6,932 bases of DNA, from assembly GCA_022560555.1 (NCBI GenBank), contig JADFSZ010000092.1:1-6932 (forward strand), read 5' to 3'. Made by a program: the position numbers and the translations under genes. The notes beneath the pieces were generated by a model that had not been told where the DNA came from, did no database searches, and saw only the letters and a program-made list of their open reading frames with translations. This document shows, piece by piece, positions 385 to 6,932 of this stretch. Position 1 is the first letter of the stretch. The number at the start of each line of letters is the position of its first letter. The stretch comes from PVC group bacterium (GTDB lineage: Bacteria; GCA-001730085; JADFSZ01).

Positions 385-2565
385 TCATGTCCCAACCACG
401 ATTTGGCGAAAATCAATCATTTCCACGAAAGTACGGCTGTTTTTCTCAAGAAGGGCAAGCCGGTTTTTTTTCAATACTTCATTGGGGGACATAACGAGGA
501 CTTCATCAAAAAAATCATCAACAAGAGGCCTCAGCGATACCAGAGCCCCAAGTGCATCATAATAATTTCTATCGCGATAGGCTTTTTCGACAGGTGTTTT
601 CACTTTTTCATACTCATTCCAGAGAATCTTTTCTTGGGAATCTTCTAACAGAGAATCACTAAACGGATGCGTTTCATGCGAGTGTTCCTGGTCTAACCAT
701 CCGGCTTGTTTGAGAATATTAGTGACCCGTGAAAATGTGGTCGTTATGGATTTAAAATCTTCCGGCTTTTCTCGGCTGAACCGGTTAACATCACTGGCAA
801 TTTTCATGATTTTGTGAATATTTAAACTCAAACGCTCCGCTTGACACACGGCCCGCGCTATGTCATAACGGATCCCCTCCTGAGTCAAAACAAATTCAAT
901 CCGGTCAAAGAGAAAATCCCGAATCCTGTTTTGCATGTTCGAATTGGGCACACCAGGAATTTTTGTCAAAGCACCGAACAAAGAAAAATCAAATTCGAAT
1001 TTTTGGGCAATTTTGATCAGTCCTGCCCCTTGACGCCGCAGGGCATAAGGATCTTTCGATCCCGTCACGATGATACCCGCTTCAAAACAATTCGCGATTG
1101 TATCCAGTTTATCCGCAAAAGATAAAACGGCCCCTATTTTTGAATCCGGTAAAGCATCCTCGGAAAAGCGAGGCAAATAATGTTCTCTTATCGCTTCAGC
1201 CGCAGCCGGGGCCTCTTTATCAAACAAAGCATATTCTTTTCCCATTTGCCCTTGAAGATCAGGAAACTCCCCCACCATATGCGTGACAAGATCCGCCTTA
1301 GAAAGCACGGAGGCTCTCAGAAGTGTTCCTAGTTCACCTGAGGATAATTTGAGATTTTCAGCCATCAGCTTACACACATCACTCACATGCTCCTGTTTGT
1401 CAAAATACGATATTTTCGTTTCCTTTAAGAAAACTACGTTTTTAAGCTTTTCGCTTTTATCAGCCAGCGTTGTTTTTGTGTCTTCATGAAAGAAAAATTC
1501 CGCGTCGGACAATCGAGCGGCTAATACTTTTTCGTTCCCCTTCACAATGCCTCCCGAGGCACCCTTGGCAACACCATTAGCCACAAAAACAAATTTTGGC
1601 AAAAGTTTTCCTTTTTTATCATGAAGCGGAAAATATCTCTGATGAGATTTCATCGCGCTCTCAAGAACACACCCGGGAAGCTCGAGAAACCGTTTATGAA
1701 ATGTTCCTGTGAGCACCACCGGATGTTCTACAAGGTTAGCAACCTCGTCTATCAAAGCCTCATCAAATGATACATTCCCCTGACTGTGTTTTTTAAGTCC
1801 TTTCACAATGATGCTTTTTCGTTCTTCAAAATCAACAATGACTCCTGCCGCTTTCATCTTTTTTTTGTATTGATGGATATTGGCTTCAGTGAGCCGGACT
1901 ATTGGCGTACGTCCCTTCAAAAACCGGTGCCCATAAGAAATCCGTCCTGATTTGACTTTTCCTATCGAAAAGTTAATCACCTTTTTGTCCAGCAAGGCTA
2001 CGACGGAACGAATCGGACGCGCAAAACGAATCAAGTTATTCGGATCCCAACGCATACTCTTTGGAAATTTCAGATTCAATATCCAATTTTGGATGATGTC
2101 CGGGAGAACTTTTTGTGCCGATTGCCCCTTGTCAGGAGGACAATCATAAAAGAGATGTTCCCGTCCGTTTCTATTCTTATAAGAGAGCTCTGCCGGGGAA
2201 ACATTAAGAGACTTCGCAAAACCAAGGGCCGCTTTGGTCCAGCTTCCGTTTTCATCGCACGCCTTATCTTTAGCAGGACCAAAAAGACCCGGGGAAACTA
2301 GTTCGGTTTGATGCAATAGAATATCTTTGACAAAAACCACAATCCGCCTCGGCGTGGCGCAAACAATCACGTCATTCGCCTTGAAAGGCTCGCTTCTTAG
2401 GCGTCCTTTTGGCGGAGCAAGATCGGACATAACCGTTCGTTCCTTTAAGAAATACTGGAGGAAGGCTTCATCAATATAGCCGGCGGGTAACTCTTCCGTG
2501 CCTATTTCCAAAAGCAAGTTGCTTGTTTTTTTATTGGTTTTTGACGTTTTTTTCTTTTTTTTCAC
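385..2565 (-). CDS. glyS: glycine--tRNA ligase beta subunit
   Basis: The ORF 385..2643 translation matches bacterial GlyRS-beta along its full length. Recognised motifs are [99 protein letters not shown] and NRLALLEK. The TGA stop is at 385..387. The start is ambiguous. I place it at GTG 2565..2563, which has AAAGG 8 nt upstream and overlaps glyQ by 35 nt. Alternatives are TTG 2571, TTG 2517 (giving [11 protein letters not shown], with no SD) and ATG 2643 (a 113-nt overlap, which I reject). Confidence 0.9.
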
Positions 2566-3406
2566 TCTCAAAACCTTTGCAATATTTTTCGGCACATTGG
2601 ATGGCCAGTTTCCGAATGCGCGCAATATATCCGACTCGCTCATTCACACTGATCGCCTTTCGGGCATCCAAGATATTAAAAGCGTGAGAACATTTTAAAA
2701 CATAGTCATAGGCCGGCCTCACAAGCCCCTTAAGAAGACACTGTCCGGCTTCTTTTTCAAACTGATCAAATGTTTCAAAATGCATCTTTACATCAGCAAC
2801 TTCAAAGCTATATTGAGAAAATTCTCTTTCGGCCTGATGGAAAATATCCCTATAGCGAAACATTTTGTTATAGGCAAGATCATAAACATTATCGACATCC
2901 TGCAAGAACATGGCGATCCGTTCCAGTCCATACGTCAGCTCCACGGAAATGGGATAAAGCTCAATCCCTCCGACCTGCTGAAAATAGGTAAACTGTGTGA
3001 CCTCCATGCCATCCAGCCAGACCTCCCACCCAAGACCCGTTGCGCCCAATGTCGGCGACTCCCAATCATCCTCGACAAAGCGTACATCATGCTTTTTAAA
3101 ATCAACGCCCATAGCCTTTAAGCTGTTTAAGTATATATCCTGGATATTTTCGGGTGAGGGTTTGATGATCACTTGAAACTGATGATGCTGATAGAGCCGA
3201 TTAGGATTGTCGCCGTAACGGCCATCGGTAGGTCTCCTGCAAGGTTCGACATAAGCCATTTGTGTCGGATGGGGCCCAAGAACACCAAAAAATGTCGCGG
3301 GGTTAAACGTCCCGGCTCCTGTTTCGACATCATAGGGCTGGCGAATGATACAGCCATAGCGGCCCCAATATTCTTGTAGTCTGAGAATAATATCTTGAAA
3401 AAACAT
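2531..3406 (-). CDS. glyQ: glycine--tRNA ligase alpha subunit
   Basis: The 291-aa translation is near-collinear with E. coli GlyQ. Shared blocks are [96 protein letters not shown], and [22 protein letters not shown]. The ATG is at 3406..3404 and the TAA at 2533..2531. Confidence 0.96.
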
Positions 3407-3597: not shown

Positions 3598-5301
3598 CTA
3601 TTTTGACTCTTTATTCTCAACATCCTCAATTGTGCCAACACAGTTTTTGCCCAATTCTTTGGCTTTATACAAACCTTCATCGGCTCTTTTAAGAACAGTC
3701 TCTTCATCATCCCCGACACGAAAACATGCTATTCCGATACTAGTGGTTATATTGAATACCTGACGACCATCTGAAATTTTATGCCTTTCTATATTCTTTC
3801 TCAGCTTTTCTGCAGCAATGAGCCCCCCTTTCAAAGCCGTCCATCTTAAAATAATGGTCATCTCGTCACCACCATATCTTGCTACCATATCCATAGTCCG
3901 CACTGTTCCCTTGATAATACCCGCAACCTCATTCAAAACAACATTCCCAACCCCGTGTCCGAACGTATCGTTAATATGCTTAAAATTGTCTATATCCATC
4001 ATGATAATGCAAAATGTTCTATTGGTTTCGGTCATTGCTTTTGAACACTCATCTCGGAGCGCAATTTTTAAAAACCTCATATTATAGAGTCCGGTAAGCT
4101 CGTCATTCATGGATAAGTCAAAAAAGCGCTTTTTTTCTATGGCCACATGCAGGAGATTGTAGACATTGATGGCCGAATAGCTTCCAAACAAAGCCACTAT
4201 AGGCATAGAACAATCCATCCATATTCCCCTCATGAACAAGGTGAATGAAGCCGCGAAAAAAACAGGGATTGAAATAAAAACGCCTATCATTTCTCTTAGC
4301 GGCTTCTCTCCTTTGGCTGAAATGGACGGCAGGAAGGCAAACAGATATATCAAAATGGTTGTCAACCACAGAGGGCTTTTTTTAATGAAATCTTGATTGA
4401 GAATATTATCAATCGTATTCGCAATGACACCGACCGCAGGGTATTCCGGCTCCAGAGGAATCGGCTTAATATCATGAAGGCCTATGCCGGTTGGACCAAC
4501 CAGGCAAATGCTATCCTTAAAATATTCGTTCTCTTTGGTATACGTTCCGCTGTCCTGAGAAGCTGCGTATAGATTTAATACTTCCAAAAAAGAGTAGTGG
4601 CGATAAGTTGTTTTCCAGCCACCCCTCCAATTTATGAGCATCTCATTATTTTTCAGGAAAGGTATTTTTATCTTTTGCGAACTACTAGCAAGAGCAAGGA
4701 AATCTTTACCAATTCGCTTAACGGCTAAACCCTGGTAATCCATTGCTATCTGTAAAGCCACATGATAATGCAGCTTCCTTGCCCCCATAAAAATCAAAGG
4801 TACTTTTCGCAAAATACCGTCGATATCGGGATAGATATTGATCGAACCCGCGCCTTTTAAATGTTTAAGGAACTTTTTTATGGGAAACAGGATCTCAACG
4901 TCCCCCTTTGCGGATTCGCGTTGACGAACGAAAGGGAGATAAACGTTGCCGGCTTGTTTAATCGATTCGCTAAAGAGGTCGTCTTGCTCTTGGGTAGATT
5001 GTTCGGAAAAAATAATGTCAAAAAATATACTTTTTGCGCCCAGTCCTTTTAATGCCTGGACAGCGGCGGCAAACCACTTACGATCCCACGGCCATTGTCC
5101 TATCTTTTGTATATTTTCATCATCAATCTCAATAATAATGATTCTGTGATCGTAAGGCTGGGGGCCTCTCAGGTGAAAAAAACTGTCTAAGACACCCTTC
5201 TCGAGACGTTGTAAAAGGTTCCCGCTGGAAAAAACCAGCACCAACGAGGACACAGACAGGGCTATTGCATAATTGATAAGTTTATATCGACTTAGTTTCA
5301 A
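3598..5301 (-). CDS. CHASE2 sensor domain-containing GGDEF (diguanylate cyclase family) membrane protein
   Basis: The protein is 567 aa. Its layout is: N-terminal TM (INYAIALSVSSLVLVFSS); a CHASE2-type extracytoplasmic region at about aa 27-310 (nt ~4372..5223) with the hallmark RIIIIEIDDENIQKIGQWPWDRKWFAAAVQAL...GAKSIFFDIIF; three TM helices at aa 311-385; and a cytoplasmic GGDEF domain at about aa 398-556 (nt ~3634..4110). GGDEF motifs seen are DELTGLYNMRF, DIDNFKHINDTFGH, an RxxD I-site (RTMD, 3889..3900), RYGGDEM (the GGDEM pentapeptide spans 3859..3873), and KRADEGLYKAK. The start is TTG 5301..5299, the only canonical start after an in-frame TGA. The TAG stop is at 3598..3600. Confidence 0.9.
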   Translation of the reverse strand: MKLSRYKLINYAIALSVSSLVLVFSSGNLLQRLEKGVLDSFFHLRGPQPYDHRIIIIEIDDENIQKIGQWPWDRKWFAAAVQALKGLGAKSIFFDIIFSEQSTQEQDDLFSESIKQAGNVYLPFVRQRESAKGDVEILFPIKKFLKHLKGAGSINIYPDIDGILRKVPLIFMGARKLHYHVALQIAMDYQGLAVKRIGKDFLALASSSQKIKIPFLKNNEMLINWRGGWKTTYRHYSFLEVLNLYAASQDSGTYTKENEYFKDSICLVGPTGIGLHDIKPIPLEPEYPAVGVIANTIDNILNQDFIKKSPLWLTTILIYLFAFLPSISAKGEKPLREMIGVFISIPVFFAASFTLFMRGIWMDCSMPIVALFGSYSAINVYNLLHVAIEKKRFFDLSMNDELTGLYNMRFLKIALRDECSKAMTETNRTFCIIMMDIDNFKHINDTFGHGVGNVVLNEVAGIIKGTVRTMDMVARYGGDEMTIILRWTALKGGLIAAEKLRKNIERHKISDGRQVFNITTSIGIACFRVGDDEETVLKRADEGLYKAKELGKNCVGTIEDVENKESK

Positions 5302-5303
5302 TA

Positions 5304-5777
5304 CTATTCCAATGCCTCGACTTCAACAGAAAAGGTTGTTCCTCTCACACCCACAACAGATGTCGGCGTTTTGATCTCAAACTTTGAATTCTCATTATGC
5401 AGTTCTTTTGCCCTGATCAAAACTTTACCGATAGCTAGATCCAGCAACGTTGTCTGGGCACCATCCTTGTCATCCGTCATAAGCTCCAAAATCAAGAGCT
5501 GGGAGTTCTCACTTATCTCAATTTCAGAAGTCTCGCCTGATCCGTTCAGGATGATCAGGGCGAAAGATTTTGATTTGGTTTTTATAATATCACCTTGATT
5601 AAGAATCATATTTTTTTGGACAGGAACCCAATTTTCCTGACCGGAGAGTTTCGCTTCCACCTCCCCCTCAAGCTCAACAACCTTTGCGACACGCGGAATC
5701 TCTTTAGAATATGCCTGTGAAGACATAATCATGACAAATACTGCCATGCAAATATACGTGAAAATCTTCATCTTCAT
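5304..5777 (-). CDS. secreted FecR-domain protein
   Basis: The protein is 157 aa. It has a Sec-type signal peptide (MKMKIFTYICMAVFVMIMSSQAYS/KE) followed by a single FecR-like beta-sandwich pattern: G.VE......W.PV.....L..GD.I.T...S.A.I.L......I......L......., then L..G.VLIR......KFEIKTP.SVVGVRGTTFSVE. The ATG at 5777 has a strong SD (GGAGGTGG) 3 nt upstream. The TAG stop is at 5304..5306. Confidence 0.85.
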   Translation of the reverse strand: MKMKIFTYICMAVFVMIMSSQAYSKEIPRVAKVVELEGEVEAKLSGQENWVPVQKNMILNQGDIIKTKSKSFALIILNGSGETSEIEISENSQLLILELMTDDKDGAQTTLLDLAIGKVLIRAKELHNENSKFEIKTPTSVVGVRGTTFSVEVEALE

Positions 5778-5780
5778 AAT

Positions 5781-5788
5781 CCACCTCC
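5781..5788 (-). promoter_or_regulatory. Shine-Dalgarno site for the FecR-domain gene
   Basis: The minus strand reads ACAGGAGGTGGATT-ATG. This is the closest match to anti-SD complementarity anywhere in the window. Confidence 0.65.
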
Positions 5789-5796
5789 TGTATGTT

Positions 5797-5831
5797 AACG
5801 TATTTAGTTAGATGAACTAAAGTCAATTATA
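5797..5831 (-). promoter_or_regulatory. candidate promoter elements upstream of the FecR / CHASE2-GGDEF pair
   Basis: The elements lie in the 89-nt gap after the exoprotein stop. On the minus strand, TTGACT (5826..5821) is followed by 18 nt and then TACGTT (5802..5797). A perfect TATAAT (5831..5826) overlaps the TTGACT but lacks a good -35. A 6-bp inverted repeat, TTAGTT-n5-AACTAA (5804..5820), sits in the spacer. Pattern-based only. Confidence 0.25.
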
Positions 5832-5866
5832 TTTGATCTATTGCATGCAGCATTTTACACTTCATC

Positions 5867-6932
5867 TTAATCGACAACACCTTCCCGTGTCGTCGAATTC
5901 TGCAGCTCCGGTGTAAGCACCGTCTCTTTTTCGTCATCAGGCCCGTTTTCATCATACGGGGCCTCGACAACCTTCCCTTCATAAATGATGATAACCGTTC
6001 TGTATTTAGCATGAATGTAACGCTTCTTCCATTTTTTACCATCTTTATAGTCGATAATAAAATAATCTTTTTCGCTTCGAGACTCTGTTCCTCTTGATAT
6101 TATCATTGTCTTGGAACCCGCGTCATATGACACCGTAACTTCGGATTCTGTTTCAAAAAGCGCAGCAAAAGACGTCTGTACATCTTCCAATGTATCTTCA
6201 TAGCTCGGGCTTGAGGCGTCACCAAGCAGGGCTATGACCTCAGGAATAAGTATCTCCGGTAATTCCGGAACAACAGGCGCGCTCCCCCCAAAATTCCAAT
6301 TCAGATTGCTTCCGCCGTCAAAACTACCCATGGAGGCATCTATAAGTAATCCTCCTGATGCGTCCGAGAAAGATACGCTGACATTATCGGCCGTCGCCAG
6401 TGCACCATTAATGATAAATATCCAGTCCGCTGTGGCATTCAACGCAAGCAAGTCCCCTACTTCACCGGTAAGAGCTAGATCTCCCCCTACTGTGATCGTT
6501 GTGCCGTTCATGGCATCGGCATCCGCTATCACTTGGCTGTCTGTCCCCATCGTAAAGTTTCCTGTGGTTTCGATGGTTTGACCATTAAAGTCTATTGTCC
6601 CGTTTTGGGCATCAAACAAGCCGCTCGTAAAACCACCCGTCAATTGTTTCGTGTCTCCAGGCGCGTTGATGATAAGATCTCCGAGAGTCTTGTTGGCAAA
6701 GCTGATCGTCTGCGTACCGTCAGATGCGTTGTTGCCAAGGGTCATTGTTGAATTCGTCACAGTCAACGTGTCAAGATTTTGAAAATCAACGTTCCCCGCA
6801 ACACTCATAATATCATTGGATATATCCAGTGTGACAGCATCAGCTGCATCCGCACCGATTGTAAAAGCACCGCTCAGCGTGAAATTATCCGTTGTTGTCA
6901 AAGAAAAAGTTTCGCCGCCACCGGCATCGGAT
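5867..6932 (-). CDS. C-terminal part of a large beta-helix-like repeat exoprotein or adhesin-like protein (5' end lies outside the window)
   Basis: The frame stays open from the window edge: SDAGGGETFS precedes the TTG that the track shows as 'M' at 6901. The true start is therefore upstream of the window. Residues up to about 6284 are Gly/Thr/Asp/Asn/Ala-rich, with short alternating beta-strand-like segments (TLSGAFTIGADAADAVTLDISNDIMSVAGNVDF, TIDFNGQTIETTGNFTMG, TTITVGGDLALTG). This region ends in GGSNLNWNFGG (6284..6316), a motif I recognise as closing beta-helix passenger-type modules. A compositionally different C-terminal region of about 138 aa follows. The TAA stop is at 5867..5869. 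Confidence 0.75.
   Translation of the reverse strand, partial: SDAGGGETFSLTTTDNFTLSGAFTIGADAADAVTLDISNDIMSVAGNVDFQNLDTLTVTNSTMTLGNNASDGTQTISFANKTLGDLIINAPGDTKQLTGGFTSGLFDAQNGTIDFNGQTIETTGNFTMGTDSQVIADADAMNGTTITVGGDLALTGEVGDLLALNATADWIFIINGALATADNVSVSFSDASGGLLIDASMGSFDGGSNLNWNFGGSAPVVPELPEILIPEVIALLGDASSPSYEDTLEDVQTSFAALFETESEVTVSYDAGSKTMIISRGTESRSEKDYFIIDYKDGKKWKKRYIHAKYRTVIIIYEGKVVEAPYDENGPDDEKETVLTPELQNSTTREGVVD

What the first reader, a model, noticed from the sequence alone, without database searches (positions are those of the whole stretch)
3598..6932. Exoprotein tail / secreted FecR protein / CHASE2-GGDEF cyclase: a candidate envelope-sensing cyclic-dinucleotide module with no known ligand
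Seen in sequence: three co-oriented genes encode, in order, a beta-helix-like exoprotein, a 157-aa protein that is only a signal peptide plus one FecR domain, and a membrane cyclase. The cyclase's predicted 1+3 TM topology places CHASE2 outside the membrane and GGDEF inside. The FecR stop and the cyclase TTG start are 2 nt apart. Established knowledge: CHASE2 is an extracytoplasmic sensor domain whose ligand and activation mechanism remain undefined. FecR-type domains are periplasmic signal-relay modules in FecA/FecR/FecI-type surface signalling. Inference: the exported FecR protein sits in the same compartment as CHASE2 and is the most plausible co-sensor or gatekeeper. The surface beta-helix protein could be the input, or a regulated output, of a surface-to-second-messenger relay. 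As I recall, FecR plus CHASE2 neighbourhoods (sometimes with hemagglutinin-like exoproteins) recur in genomes without any functional description, but I cannot verify that here.
Basis: partly seen in the sequence, partly recalled or inferred. Interest (0 to 1): 0.72.

Follow-up and report, generated by a model that had tools for sequence, protein, structure and literature searches.

The report
Secreted FecR partner of CHASE2 cyclase
An uncultured Omnitrophota bacterium encodes a small exported FecR-domain protein back-to-back with a membrane CHASE2 diguanylate cyclase and next to a giant secreted adhesin-like protein; the FecR–CHASE2 pair is a widespread sensory cassette already noted in the literature, while its link to a two-partner secretion system appears not to have been described.

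Summary
On the minus strand lie a 5'-truncated exoprotein gene (6932..5867), a 157-aa signal-peptide-plus-FecR protein (5777..5304) and a 567-aa CHASE2-GGDEF protein (5301..3598; 1+3 TM). The FecR stop and cyclase TTG start are 2 nt apart.

FecR→CHASE2 adjacency far exceeds chance: 55 of 73 species-level Omnitrophota genomes and 6 of 6 proteobacterial loci inspected, across four output domains. It is not undescribed. It has been noted in Burkholderia and Campylobacterota. In Sinorhizobium, I find that the outer-membrane receptor NsrA, required for CHASE2 cyclase signalling, carries an N-terminal FecR domain, and its gene overlaps cyaK.

What looks new is clade-specific. In the window's clade the pair clusters with a ShlB-type TpsB transporter and TPS-domain exoproteins (16 of 23 loci with enough flank). 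Those exoproteins end in a Pro-rich linker plus a conserved ~50-aa C-terminal module, also present in the window. In three genomes that module is fused to a FecR domain.

Best model: FecR is a periplasmic adaptor coupling an outer-membrane or surface event to CHASE2 and c-di-GMP synthesis. Whether the exoprotein is input or output is unresolved. This is a new variant of a known kind, of moderate interest.

The parts
5867..6932 (-). 3' part (354 codons plus stop) of an exoprotein gene whose 5' end lies off the contig; most likely the C-terminal region of a two-partner-secretion (TpsA) exoprotein
   Evidence: The ORF is open to the window edge and NCBI annotates it as partial. BLASTP to the C-terminal regions of TPS-domain exoproteins encoded beside FecR/CHASE2 gives L010 E 3.7e-24 (res 1196-1500 of 1567), L008 5.7e-13 and L007 8.6e-11. 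It occupies the same gene order as L010: TpsB, TpsA, FecR, CHASE2-GGDEF. It has no Pfam hit of its own.
6290..6316 (-). Shaft-end motif GGSNLNWNF (relatives: DSGNNTNWF)
   Evidence: The same motif precedes the Pro-rich linker in module-bearing exoproteins. Coordinates.
6176..6289 (-). Pro-rich, acidic low-complexity linker (GGSAPVVPELPEILIPEV...)
   Evidence: In 30 module-bearing proteins, the 70 aa before the module contain 13% Pro versus 2% in the body (Wilcoxon p = 2e-6) and 28% versus 14% charged residues. Coordinates.
5870..6037 (-). Conserved C-terminal module (~50 aa core: Y.K.Y..GKY[RK]T.VIV[FY]EG.V.V.PYDE.GP...L..G)
   Evidence: An HMM and alignment cover 22 copies. An exhaustive phmmer search found 78 representatives among 1.84 billion proteins, with 64 of 77 ending within 30 aa of the C-terminus. 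Four of six long carriers have an N-terminal TPS domain. The module is fused after a FecR domain in L035, L038 and L039.
5778..5866 (-). 89-nt intergenic spacer with a Shine-Dalgarno-like GGAGGTGG just upstream of the FecR ATG
   Evidence: Sequence read. There are no promoter or terminator matches beyond chance and no minus-strand terminator.
5304..5777 (-). Gene for the 157-aa exported FecR-domain-only protein (signal peptide 5706-5777; FecR domain 5322-5588)
   Evidence: Pfam FecR 3.4e-10. 294 homologs of about 155 aa. AF2 pLDDT 87.9, all-beta. Foldseek hits to a FecR-family anti-sigma periplasmic domain (4m0n) and the MpIBP anchor domain (5ix9). A gene of this family is adjacent to the cyclase in 55 of 73 genomes.
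3598..5301 (-). Gene for the CHASE2-GGDEF membrane diguanylate cyclase. TTG start 2 nt after the FecR stop. TM1 5224-5289; periplasmic CHASE2 4372-5223; TM2-4 4129-4371; GGDEF 3643-4107; GGDEM motif 3859-3873; RxxD I-site 3889-3900; Asn453 3943-3945
   Evidence: Pfam and NCBIfam hits. More than 1,600 homologs. AF2 model. Catalytic residues conserved across 111 relatives. Coordinates.

Best explanation
The FecR gene and the CHASE2-GGDEF gene form one sensory unit.

How it most likely works:
- The small FecR protein is exported to the periplasm. There it acts as an adaptor or co-sensor for the periplasmic CHASE2 domain of the inner-membrane cyclase.
- It couples an event at the outer membrane or cell surface to synthesis of c-di-GMP by the cytoplasmic GGDEF domain.
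- In this Omnitrophota clade the outer-membrane partner is most likely a two-partner secretion system. A TpsB (ShlB-type) barrel holds a giant TpsA exoprotein. The exoprotein's last ~50 residues form a conserved module behind a Pro-rich linker, and this module plausibly stays on the periplasmic side, where FecR and CHASE2 are.
- The arrangement is a 'split' counterpart of Sinorhizobium NsrA-CyaK, where FecR domain, TPR repeats and outer-membrane barrel are a single polypeptide encoded directly upstream of a CHASE2 adenylate cyclase.

Shown: domain identities, predicted topology, translational-coupling geometry, cross-phylum conservation of the FecR→CHASE2 gene order, clade-specific clustering with TpsB and TpsA, and the existence, position and FecR fusion of the C-terminal module.

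Inferred: physical FecR-CHASE2 contact, periplasmic location of the module, the direction of information flow, and enzymatic activity.
For: FecR–CHASE2 pairing:
- The junction gap is 2 nt here. A FecR-family ORF lies immediately upstream and co-oriented in 55 of 73 species-level genomes, most often 1-3 nt away. By clade this is 33 of 37 and 23 of 36.
- All 6 proteobacterial CHASE2 loci inspected have a FecR-domain gene directly upstream. Their outputs are adenylate cyclase, histidine kinase or EAL.
- NsrA has FecR (2.3e-15), TPR repeats and a barrel, and its gene overlaps cyaK. NsrA is required for CyaK and CyaD signalling (PMC7529298).

Compartment:
- FecR has a signal peptide and CHASE2 lies between TM helices.

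TPS link:
- Unbiased clustering of 536 neighbouring proteins puts ShlB/POTRA_2 (17 loci) and TPS exoproteins (15 loci) at the top.
- TPS evidence is present in 16 of 23 close-clade loci with at least 3 kb upstream, and never without FecR.
- In L102 the order is TpsA-(2 nt)-FecR, then TpsB on the opposite strand, then CHASE2-GGDEF.

C-terminal module:
- It sits at the C-terminus in 64 of 77 hits, behind a Pro-rich linker, on TPS-domain proteins.
- It is fused to a FecR domain in three genomes, in the gene directly downstream of the cyclase.

Weaker support:
- FecR divergence tracks CHASE2 slightly better than GGDEF (partial r 0.44 versus 0.32).
- The FecR model resembles the periplasmic anchor domain 5ix9 (prob 0.99, TM 0.71) and a FecR-family anti-sigma domain.

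Precedent:
- TpsA C-termini retained in the periplasm are known: the CdrA tail cleaved by LapG, and the FhaB prodomain (PMC5422565).

Enzyme:
- The GGDEF catalytic residues and the RxxD I-site are conserved.
Against: - No interaction was predicted or measured; no multimer prediction was available.
- 18 of 73 related cyclase genes lack an adjacent FecR gene by my HMM, some with no room for one (L072: tyrS ends 24 nt before the cyclase). FecR is therefore not obligatory for the family.
- The TPS link is absent from the distant clade (1 of 29) and from the six proteobacterial loci inspected.
- Gene orientation between the TPS genes and the pair varies among loci.
- A module-bearing TpsA/TpsB pair occurs without FecR/CHASE2 (L104), and module-bearing TpsAs lie away from the pair in L106.
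- The window itself contains no TpsB gene and no TPS domain, because the contig ends.
- The similarity between the module and the FecR N-terminal hairpin is weak (hhalign P 0.008, probability 5%).
- The co-evolution signal is small and confounded by shared phylogeny.
- Foldseek E-values are all above 0.1.
- The window enzyme has Asn at the guanine-contact position and GGDEM instead of GGDEF, so its activity and product are unverified.
Confidence: 0.55

Rival explanations
1. Inside-out control. The exoprotein is a regulated output rather than the input. FecR/CHASE2 sense some other envelope or environmental cue, and the resulting c-di-GMP governs expression, secretion, retention or release of the TPS adhesin. 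This would resemble c-di-GMP control of CdrA/CdrB and the Lap system in Pseudomonas.
For: - c-di-GMP is known to control a TPS adhesin. cdrAB expression is controlled via FleQ, and CdrA release via LapG cleavage of its periplasmic C-terminal tail (PMC5422565).
- The passenger domains of module-bearing TpsAs look like adhesins (Laminin_G_3, DUF2341, YDG).
- The linker-plus-terminal-module layout mirrors the LapA retention module.
- A transglutaminase-like 175-aa protein lies beside TpsB in L005.
- FecR/CHASE2 pairs function without TPS in other clades, so TPS need not be the sensor input.
Against: - No LapD-, LapG-, PilZ- or FleQ-type effector recurs in the neighbourhood clustering.
- The fusion of the module to a FecR domain and TpsB sitting between FecR and the cyclase suggest the TPS proteins work with the sensory side.
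- The NsrA precedent has the outer-membrane component upstream of the cyclase in the signalling order (PMC7529298).
- The two models are not mutually exclusive; a feedback loop is possible.
Confidence: 0.25
2. FecR is a dedicated periplasmic partner of CHASE2 (inhibitor, chaperone or ligand-binding subunit) with no outer-membrane connection. The TPS genes are neighbours in one clade for reasons unrelated to signalling, such as inherited synteny or an island insertion between rpsA and tyrS.
For: - FecR/CHASE2 pairs occur without TPS in 28 of 29 distant-clade loci and in the six proteobacterial loci inspected.
- Orientation between the TPS genes and the pair is variable.
- Module-bearing TPS systems exist away from FecR/CHASE2.
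Against: - TPS genes are the top two recurrent neighbour families in an unbiased clustering. They persist across many species-level genomes at 39-50% protein identity despite rearrangements.
- The FecR-module fusion proteins sit next to the cyclase.
- TpsB lies between FecR and the cyclase in L102.
- In other lineages the FecR partner is itself tied to the envelope, through LysM in Burkholderiales and an outer-membrane barrel in NsrA.
Confidence: 0.15
3. Classical FecR-type cell-surface signalling. The FecR protein acts as an anti-sigma factor relaying a TonB-dependent transducer signal to an ECF sigma factor, and the cyclase is a bystander.
For: The only support is the Pfam FecR hit and the fold match to a putative anti-sigma factor periplasmic domain, 4m0n.
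Against: - The protein is 157 aa, made only of a signal peptide and the FecR domain. It has no cytoplasmic anti-sigma domain and no membrane anchor.
- There is no ECF sigma or TonB-dependent receptor gene in the window, and none among the recurrent neighbours.
- The conserved partner is the CHASE2 gene, 1-3 nt downstream.
Confidence: 0.02

Closest known systems
Sinorhizobium meliloti NsrA-CyaK (and CyaD1/CyaD2): outer-membrane receptor plus CHASE2 adenylate cyclases
   Same: - A FecR-domain protein is encoded immediately upstream of, and coupled to, a CHASE2 membrane nucleotide cyclase. nsrA's stop overlaps cyaK's start; here the gap is 2 nt.
- An outer-membrane beta-barrel component belongs to the system.
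- The FecR-bearing protein is genetically required for signal perception by the CHASE2 cyclase (PMC7529298).
   Different: - NsrA is a single 1,200-aa polypeptide of FecR, TPR repeats and a barrel. Here FecR stands alone (157 aa), and the candidate barrel is a separate ShlB-type TpsB with a TpsA cargo.
- The NsrA barrel shows no ShlB similarity in Pfam.
- The output is a class III adenylate cyclase (cAMP, Clr) rather than GGDEF (c-di-GMP).
- The phylum and lifestyle differ.
Burkholderia/Pseudomonas 'BiofilmReg' operon (RR - LysM/FecR protein - CHASE2 histidine kinase - DUF4136)
   Same: An exported FecR-domain protein is encoded directly upstream of a CHASE2 receptor with 1+3 TM topology (PMC5192318). 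This was re-verified in B. thailandensis, Variovorax and Eleftheria.
   Different: - That partner is 430-560 aa, with LysM (peptidoglycan-binding) and extra C-terminal domains.
- The output is a histidine kinase with a response regulator.
- No TPS genes are present.
- Only the response regulator was mutated experimentally.
Campylobacterota CHASE2 adenylate cyclase cluster (cyclase, phosphodiesterase, FecR-domain outer-membrane protein, TPR protein)
   Same: The FecR domain, an outer-membrane component and a CHASE2 cyclase are clustered, and the authors infer that they form one pathway (PMC9239204).
   Different: - The output is cAMP.
- FecR is said to be part of an outer-membrane protein.
- No TPS exoprotein is present.
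- The work is purely comparative.
FecA/FecR/FecI cell-surface signalling
   Same: A periplasmic FecR-family beta domain (Pfam PF04773; fold match to 4m0n) is placed between an outer-membrane protein and an inner-membrane signalling step.
   Different: - There is no anti-sigma N-domain and no TM anchor.
- There is no ECF sigma and no TonB-dependent transducer.
- The downstream element is a CHASE2 receptor cyclase.
c-di-GMP-controlled giant adhesins: LapA/LapD/LapG (T1SS) and CdrA/CdrB (TPS)
   Same: - A giant surface protein has a small folded terminal domain and an extended linker at the end that is exported last.
- c-di-GMP enzymes are genetically linked to an adhesin secretion system.
- CdrA is a TpsA whose C-terminal tail is periplasmic (PMC5422565).
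   Different: - Those systems work inside-out, with c-di-GMP acting on LapD, LapG and then adhesin release.
- No LapD or LapG recurs here.
- The linked enzyme is a periplasm-sensing cyclase with a FecR partner, which suggests outside-in signalling or a feedback loop.

Membership tests
CHASE2 sensor domain (Pfam PF05226) | Profile match above the curated threshold | tested here: met
   183.6 bits against a cut-off of 26.3, E 6.8e-54, res 20-321
CHASE2 sensor domain (Pfam PF05226) | Extracytoplasmic placement between one N-terminal TM helix and further TM helices before the output domain | tested here: met
   Hydropathy and AF2 helices 5-26, 311-328, 334-357 and 365-391. This is a prediction only. 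The N-terminus MKLSRYK is positively charged, consistent with a cytoplasmic N-terminus.
GGDEF diguanylate cyclase (PF00990 / TIGR00254) | Profile match above threshold | tested here: met
   PF00990 141.4 bits; TIGR00254 167.6 bits against a cut-off of 37.4
GGDEF diguanylate cyclase (PF00990 / TIGR00254) | Intact GG[D/E]EF active-site motif and metal/substrate-binding residues | tested here: inconclusive
   The motif reads GGDEM. Met in place of Phe is typical of the family (87 of 111). The DxD, FK, ND and GH residues and the RxxD I-site are conserved. The guanine-contact Asp is Asn453, seen in only 2 of 178 relatives.
GGDEF diguanylate cyclase (PF00990 / TIGR00254) | c-di-GMP synthesis from GTP | not testable with these tools
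   Needs an enzyme assay.
Hypr GGDEF (cGAMP-producing) | Ser (or Thr) at the Watson-Crick-face position (GacA Ser348) combined with GGDEF rather than GGEEF | tested here: not met
   The position is Asn, not Ser. The only relative with Asn has GGEEM, so there is no 'Goldilocks' covariation (rule from PMC6456294).
FecR domain (Pfam PF04773) | Profile match above the curated threshold | tested here: met
   40.7 bits against a cut-off of 24, E 3.4e-10, res 64-152. Fold match to the FecR-family periplasmic domain 4m0n, prob 0.90.
FecR-type anti-sigma factor (FecA/FecR/FecI surface signalling) | N-terminal cytoplasmic anti-sigma domain and a single TM anchor | tested here: not met
   The protein is 157 aa, with only a cleavable-type signal peptide followed by the beta domain.
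FecR-type anti-sigma factor (FecA/FecR/FecI surface signalling) | Genetic linkage to an ECF sigma factor and a TonB-dependent transducer | tested here: not met
   None is present in the window, and none is among the recurrent neighbours in 80 loci.
Two-partner secretion (type Vb) system | TpsA exoprotein with an N-terminal TPS secretion domain (PF05860) | not testable with these tools
   The N-terminus of the window ORF lies off the contig. Relatives that align to its C-terminal region and share its C-terminal module do have the TPS domain (L010 3.8e-23; 4 of 6 long carriers).
Two-partner secretion (type Vb) system | Cognate TpsB transporter (POTRA_2 + ShlB barrel) encoded nearby | not testable with these tools
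   It is not within the 6.9-kb contig. It is present in 5 of 5 long metagenomic contexts, in 17 of 80 genome loci (12 of 23 close-clade loci with at least 3 kb upstream) and in L102.
NsrA-CyaK-type FecR/CHASE2 cyclase system | FecR-domain gene directly upstream of, and coupled to, a CHASE2 nucleotide cyclase gene | tested here: met
   The gap is 2 nt here. nsrA and cyaK overlap, and NsrA has a FecR domain at 2.3e-15.
NsrA-CyaK-type FecR/CHASE2 cyclase system | FecR domain fused through TPR repeats to an outer-membrane beta-barrel; class III cyclase output | tested here: not met
   FecR stands alone and the output is GGDEF. The window module therefore works like this system but is not a member of it.
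Lap-type adhesin retention system | Small folded retention domain plus extended linker at the terminus exported last | tested here: inconclusive
   A Pro-rich linker and a conserved terminal module are present. Localisation is not testable, and the module's own fold was not predicted.
Lap-type adhesin retention system | LapG-type protease and LapD-type c-di-GMP receptor | tested here: not met
   Neither is among the recurrent neighbours. There is one weak Transglut_core/DUF553 neighbour, in L005 only.

The most novel reading that the evidence does not exclude
The TPS exoprotein acts as a contact or tension sensor. Its conserved C-terminal module stays in the periplasm as a plug behind a Pro-rich linker threaded through TpsB. 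There it is read by the FecR protein, possibly by beta-strand exchange because the module resembles FecR's own N-terminal hairpin. Engagement or pulling of the giant surface protein by a substrate or host cell would then be converted, through FecR and CHASE2, into c-di-GMP synthesis. That would provide a physical input for a CHASE2 receptor and a new outside-in function for type Vb secretion systems, in a phylum (Omnitrophota) that, to my recollection and not checked here, is suspected of host-attached lifestyles.
Probability: 0.2. Interest if true: 0.8.

Novelty: new variant of a known kind. Interest (0 to 1): 0.55.

Why it matters
CHASE2 is one of the most widespread bacterial extracytoplasmic sensor domains whose input and activation mechanism are still unknown. 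It has no solved structure and, as shown here, no recognisable structural relative.

Three points follow from this work:
- A FecR-domain gene sits directly upstream of CHASE2 genes across phyla and across four output types.
- The one genetically characterised CHASE2 partner, NsrA, carries that same domain. This argues that FecR-CHASE2 is the conserved core of the sensor and that the variable element is whatever FecR is tethered to (outer-membrane barrel, LysM, or here a TPS system).
- The Omnitrophota version is the most reduced form, with a 133-aa mature FecR and a 284-aa CHASE2 domain. That makes it a convenient pair for structure prediction, co-expression and binding studies.

The link to a two-partner secretion system, and the newly delineated TpsA C-terminal module, give a concrete and testable candidate for a surface-to-second-messenger relay.

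Tried and rejected
1. Extending the contig. The window is the whole NCBI contig, and the only other contigs carrying the identical FecR protein are 1.3 and 0.7 kb.
2. Homologs of the exoprotein tail. Only three turned up (P0242-P0244). They share just the repetitive shaft segment and sit in unrelated contexts, one of them a Mu-like prophage. They say nothing about the missing N-terminus.
3. Solved CHASE2 structures by sequence: none. Fold search of a confident CHASE2 model against the PDB gave nothing meaningful (best probability 0.21).
4. NsrA barrel versus ShlB/Omp85. There is no Pfam similarity even at E ≤ 10, so I do not claim that NsrA's barrel and TpsB are homologous.
5. Module versus FecR N-terminal hairpin by hhalign. 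The match falls in the expected register but is weak (score 18.7, P 0.008, probability 5%; 0 of 20 column shuffles reach it). I treat it as suggestive only.
6. Mirror-tree co-evolution of FecR with CHASE2 versus GGDEF. The difference is small (partial r 0.44 versus 0.32) and not decisive.
7. Hypr-GGDEF reading of Asn453. Rejected: the residue is not Ser, and the position does not covary with GGDEx versus GGEEx.
8. Promoter and terminator scan. No signal above shuffles.
9. Rfam and tRNA scans. No riboswitch or other RNA element.
10. Literature linking CHASE2 to TPS or hemagglutinin. None found; the single hit was a false match to 'Chase200'. No paper describes a FecR partner for a CHASE2 diguanylate cyclase.
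11. Classical FecR anti-sigma reading. Rejected on anatomy.
12. The NsrA primary paper (PMC5952392) is not in the held library, so NsrA function is cited through PMC7529298.

Full report
**What is in the window.**
All genes are on the minus strand. Reading 5' to 3', they are:
- A 5'-truncated ORF open to the window edge (6932..5867).
- After an 89-nt spacer with a GGAGG Shine-Dalgarno, a 157-aa ORF (5777..5304).
- A 567-aa ORF starting at TTG (5301..3598).
- After 191 nt, glyQ and glyS.

Pfam gives CHASE2 (6.8e-54, res 20-321) and GGDEF (2.8e-41, res 399-553) for the 567-aa protein. It gives FecR (3.4e-10, res 64-152) for the 157-aa protein, and nothing for the truncated ORF. The FecR stop and the cyclase start read TAG-TA-TTG, a 2-nt gap. 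Hydropathy and a confident AlphaFold2 model (pLDDT 86.7, pTM 0.87) show one N-terminal helix, an alpha/beta domain and three further helices. This places CHASE2 outside and GGDEF inside. The FecR protein has a typical signal peptide and an all-beta body (pLDDT 87.9). The exception is 'beta-helix-like', which remains an impression from G/T/N/S-rich repeats.

**Provenance.**
The window is an entire 6,932-bp contig of a 'PVC group' MAG. The cyclase has more than 1,600 homologs, and the best are 43-52% identical proteins of about 560 aa from Candidatus Omnitrophota. The FecR protein has 294 homologs of about 155 aa. The contig cannot be extended.

**Is the FecR/CHASE2 adjacency real?**
I fetched 80 species-level genome loci with a CHASE2-only profile; nearly all are Omnitrophota. 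I then scanned them with HMMs built in-session.
- A FecR-family ORF lies immediately upstream and co-oriented in 55 of the 73 loci with room for one. The commonest gap is 1-3 nt.
- Only 11 other FecR-family ORFs occur in the 881 kb examined.
- By clade the figures are 33 of 37 (at least 39% identity to the window's CHASE2 region) and 23 of 36 (more distant).

Outside the phylum, a tblastn search of the plasmid and chromid collection reached proteobacterial CHASE2 genes. In all six loci I opened, a FecR-domain gene sits directly upstream:
- S. meliloti nsrA-cyaK.
- Response regulator, LysM/FecR protein and CHASE2 kinase in B. thailandensis, Variovorax and Eleftheria.
- FecR and a CHASE2-EAL protein in R. 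leguminosarum.
- Crp, FecR (205 aa) and a CHASE2 adenylate cyclase in Paroceanicella.

The pair is thus a general cassette that is independent of the output domain.

**It is not undescribed.**
The adjacency is reported for the Burkholderia/Pseudomonas 'BiofilmReg' operon (PMC5192318) and for Campylobacterota CHASE2 adenylate cyclases (PMC9239204). A FecR-domain gene also accompanies the S. meliloti cAMP circuit (PMC5498481). Most importantly, the outer-membrane protein NsrA is required for signal perception by the CHASE2 cyclases CyaK and CyaD1/D2 (PMC7529298). NsrA proves to be an N-terminal FecR domain (2.3e-15), TPR repeats and a C-terminal barrel, and its stop codon overlaps the cyaK start. 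That is the closest functional precedent. The window's module is a split version of it with a c-di-GMP output.

**The exoprotein and the TPS link.**
On long contigs carrying FecR homologs, 5 of 5 independent neighbourhoods contain a ShlB/POTRA_2 transporter. Four of these also contain TPS-domain exoproteins of 1,369-2,657 aa. L010 reproduces the window's order: TpsB, TpsA, FecR, CHASE2-GGDEF.

The window's truncated ORF aligns to the C-terminal region of the L010 TpsA (E 3.7e-24) and to the ends of the L008 and L007 TpsAs. An unbiased clustering of 536 neighbouring proteins from the 80 loci puts ShlB (17 loci) and TPS exoproteins (15 loci) first. The other recurrent clusters are housekeeping synteny.

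The link is clade-specific. TPS evidence appears in 16 of 23 close-clade loci with at least 3 kb upstream, against 1 of 29 in the distant clade, and never without FecR. In L102 the four genes are interleaved: TpsA, then FecR after 2 nt, then TpsB on the opposite strand, then CHASE2-GGDEF.

**A conserved TpsA C-terminal module.**
The window ORF ends with ...KYRTVIIIYEGKVVEAPYDENGP.... The same ~50-aa module ends the exoproteins encoded upstream of FecR in at least ten further genomes, sometimes in two copies.
- An exhaustive search of 1.84 billion representatives with the window's last 81 residues found only 78 proteins. In 64 of 77 of them the match ends within 30 residues of the C-terminus, in proteins of up to 3,600 aa.
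- Four of six long carriers have an N-terminal TPS domain and adhesin-like passenger domains.
- The 70 residues before the module are Pro-rich (13% versus 2%, p = 2e-6) and highly charged.
- The window shows the same order: shaft-end motif GGSNLNWNF, Pro-rich linker, module.
- In L035, L038 and L039 the gene directly downstream of the cyclase encodes a signal sequence, a FecR domain (Pfam about 24 bits) and this module in one polypeptide. Such a domain fusion argues that the module and the FecR domain work together.

The module aligns to FecR's own N-terminal hairpin, but only weakly. Not every module-bearing TPS system is next to FecR/CHASE2.

**Structure-based hints.**
By probability, the best PDB matches of the FecR model are two:
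- 5ix9 (prob 0.99, TM 0.71, 1.6 Å over 66 residues). This is the periplasmic anchor domain of the MpIBP adhesin, which was used as the template for modelling the LapA retention module.
- A FecR-family putative anti-sigma periplasmic domain, 4m0n (prob 0.90).

E-values are all above 0.1, so these are leads only. CHASE2 has no solved structure and no structural relative.

**The enzyme.**
Across 111 relatives the metal-binding and substrate-binding residues and the RxxD I-site are conserved, and the signature motif is GG(E/D)EM. The window protein has Asn453 where 176 of 178 distinct relatives have the guanine-contacting Asp. It is not the Ser of Hypr GGDEFs, and it shows no 'Goldilocks' covariation. 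The most likely product remains c-di-GMP, but that is inference.

**Mechanism.**
The best-supported model has FecR as a periplasmic adaptor or co-sensor of CHASE2. It would couple an outer-membrane or surface component to cyclase activity. In this clade that component is a TpsB/TpsA system whose exoprotein keeps a C-terminal module on the periplasmic side.

Periplasm-retained TpsA C-termini are established for CdrA and FhaB (PMC5422565). Support for a FecR-CHASE2 contact is indirect. It rests on the shared compartment, the coupling geometry, the cross-phylum conservation, the NsrA genetics and a small co-evolution excess.

The main rival is inside-out control, in which c-di-GMP regulates the adhesin as in the CdrA and Lap systems. 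A feedback loop combining both directions is possible. Coincidental synteny with TPS and a classical anti-sigma role are less likely, and the anti-sigma role is excluded by the anatomy.

**Verdict.**
- The FecR-CHASE2 core is a known, although mechanistically unsolved, kind of system. It has one genetically characterised member.
- The stand-alone FecR with a GGDEF output, the TPS coupling and the TpsA C-terminal module make this a new variant.
- It offers a compact model pair for working out how CHASE2 receptors are activated.

Noticed in passing
window 3943-3945 (minus strand; cyclase residue 453): Asn replaces the guanine-contacting Asp of GGDEF domains (PleD D344 / GacA S348 position). Only this protein and its closest relative P0004 have Asn, out of 178 distinct family members. 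It might alter nucleotide specificity or activity.
   Followed up: partly
window 3859-3873 and family alignment (P0001-P0120): The whole Omnitrophota CHASE2-GGDEF family carries GG(E/D)EM instead of GG(D/E)EF (Met in 87 of 111, Ile in 15, Phe in only 8).
   Followed up: partly
window 2531-2643: The first ATG of the glyS ORF lies 113 nt inside the 3' end of glyQ in another frame, and homology to GlyS starts only at residue 43. The true glyS start is probably later, or the two genes overlap unusually.
   Followed up: no
L035:3798-4862, L038:4725-5804, L039:9772-10821: Directly downstream of the cyclase lie ~350-aa proteins that combine a signal/TM segment, a FecR domain, the TpsA-type C-terminal module and a long Glu/Lys-rich tail. 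These genomes therefore have two FecR-domain genes flanking the cyclase.
   Followed up: partly
L102:6001-15302 (also L103): The four genes are interleaved: TpsA, then FecR after 2 nt, then TpsB on the opposite strand, then CHASE2-GGDEF, then tyrS. The cluster sits between rpsA and tyrS. This is the same housekeeping context (cmk, acyltransferase, rpsA, tyrS) in which the distant-clade cyclases sit without TPS genes, which suggests loss or gain of the TPS genes at a fixed site.
   Followed up: partly
L104:6001-14738: A module-bearing TpsA (TPS, DUF2341, Laminin_G_3) and its TpsB lie next to a HAMP histidine kinase and near a HAMP-HD_5 protein, with no FecR/CHASE2. The module is therefore not exclusive to the FecR/CHASE2 context.
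   Followed up: no
L005:3774-4301 and 9045-9850 (also L006): Beside the TpsB gene is a 175-aa protein with weak transglutaminase-core/DUF553 hits, which may be a LapG-like protease. Two small proteins lie next to FecR, and one has a type IV pilin N-methylation motif. A T2SSE-type ATPase also recurs near the pair in 9 of 80 loci.
   Followed up: no
L097/L098:9001-10566 (P0244): A 521-aa homolog of the window exoprotein's repeat region is encoded within a Mu-like prophage structural module (terminase, portal, Mu F, capsid). The shaft repeat is therefore shared with a probable phage fibre or receptor-binding protein.
   Followed up: no
L011:10466-12099; L003:11023-12153; L032:1403-3082: In some assemblies the cyclase gene is broken. 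In L011 it is split into CHASE2 (425 aa) and GGDEF (103 aa) ORFs. In L003 and L032 the ORF is shortened and there is a 557-nt gap after FecR, although tblastn matches residues 3-392. These are possible pseudogenes or assembly errors.
   Followed up: no
L093:4246-7848 (S. meliloti nsrA): Besides its FecR domain, NsrA gives sub-threshold NCBIfam matches to TPR-containing envelope proteins, including the TPR-plus-porin PgaA. Its barrel has no ShlB/Omp85 match in Pfam. The small FecR protein and NsrA's FecR region both give sub-threshold hits to the Leptospira lipoproteins LipL45 and Lsa33.
   Followed up: partly
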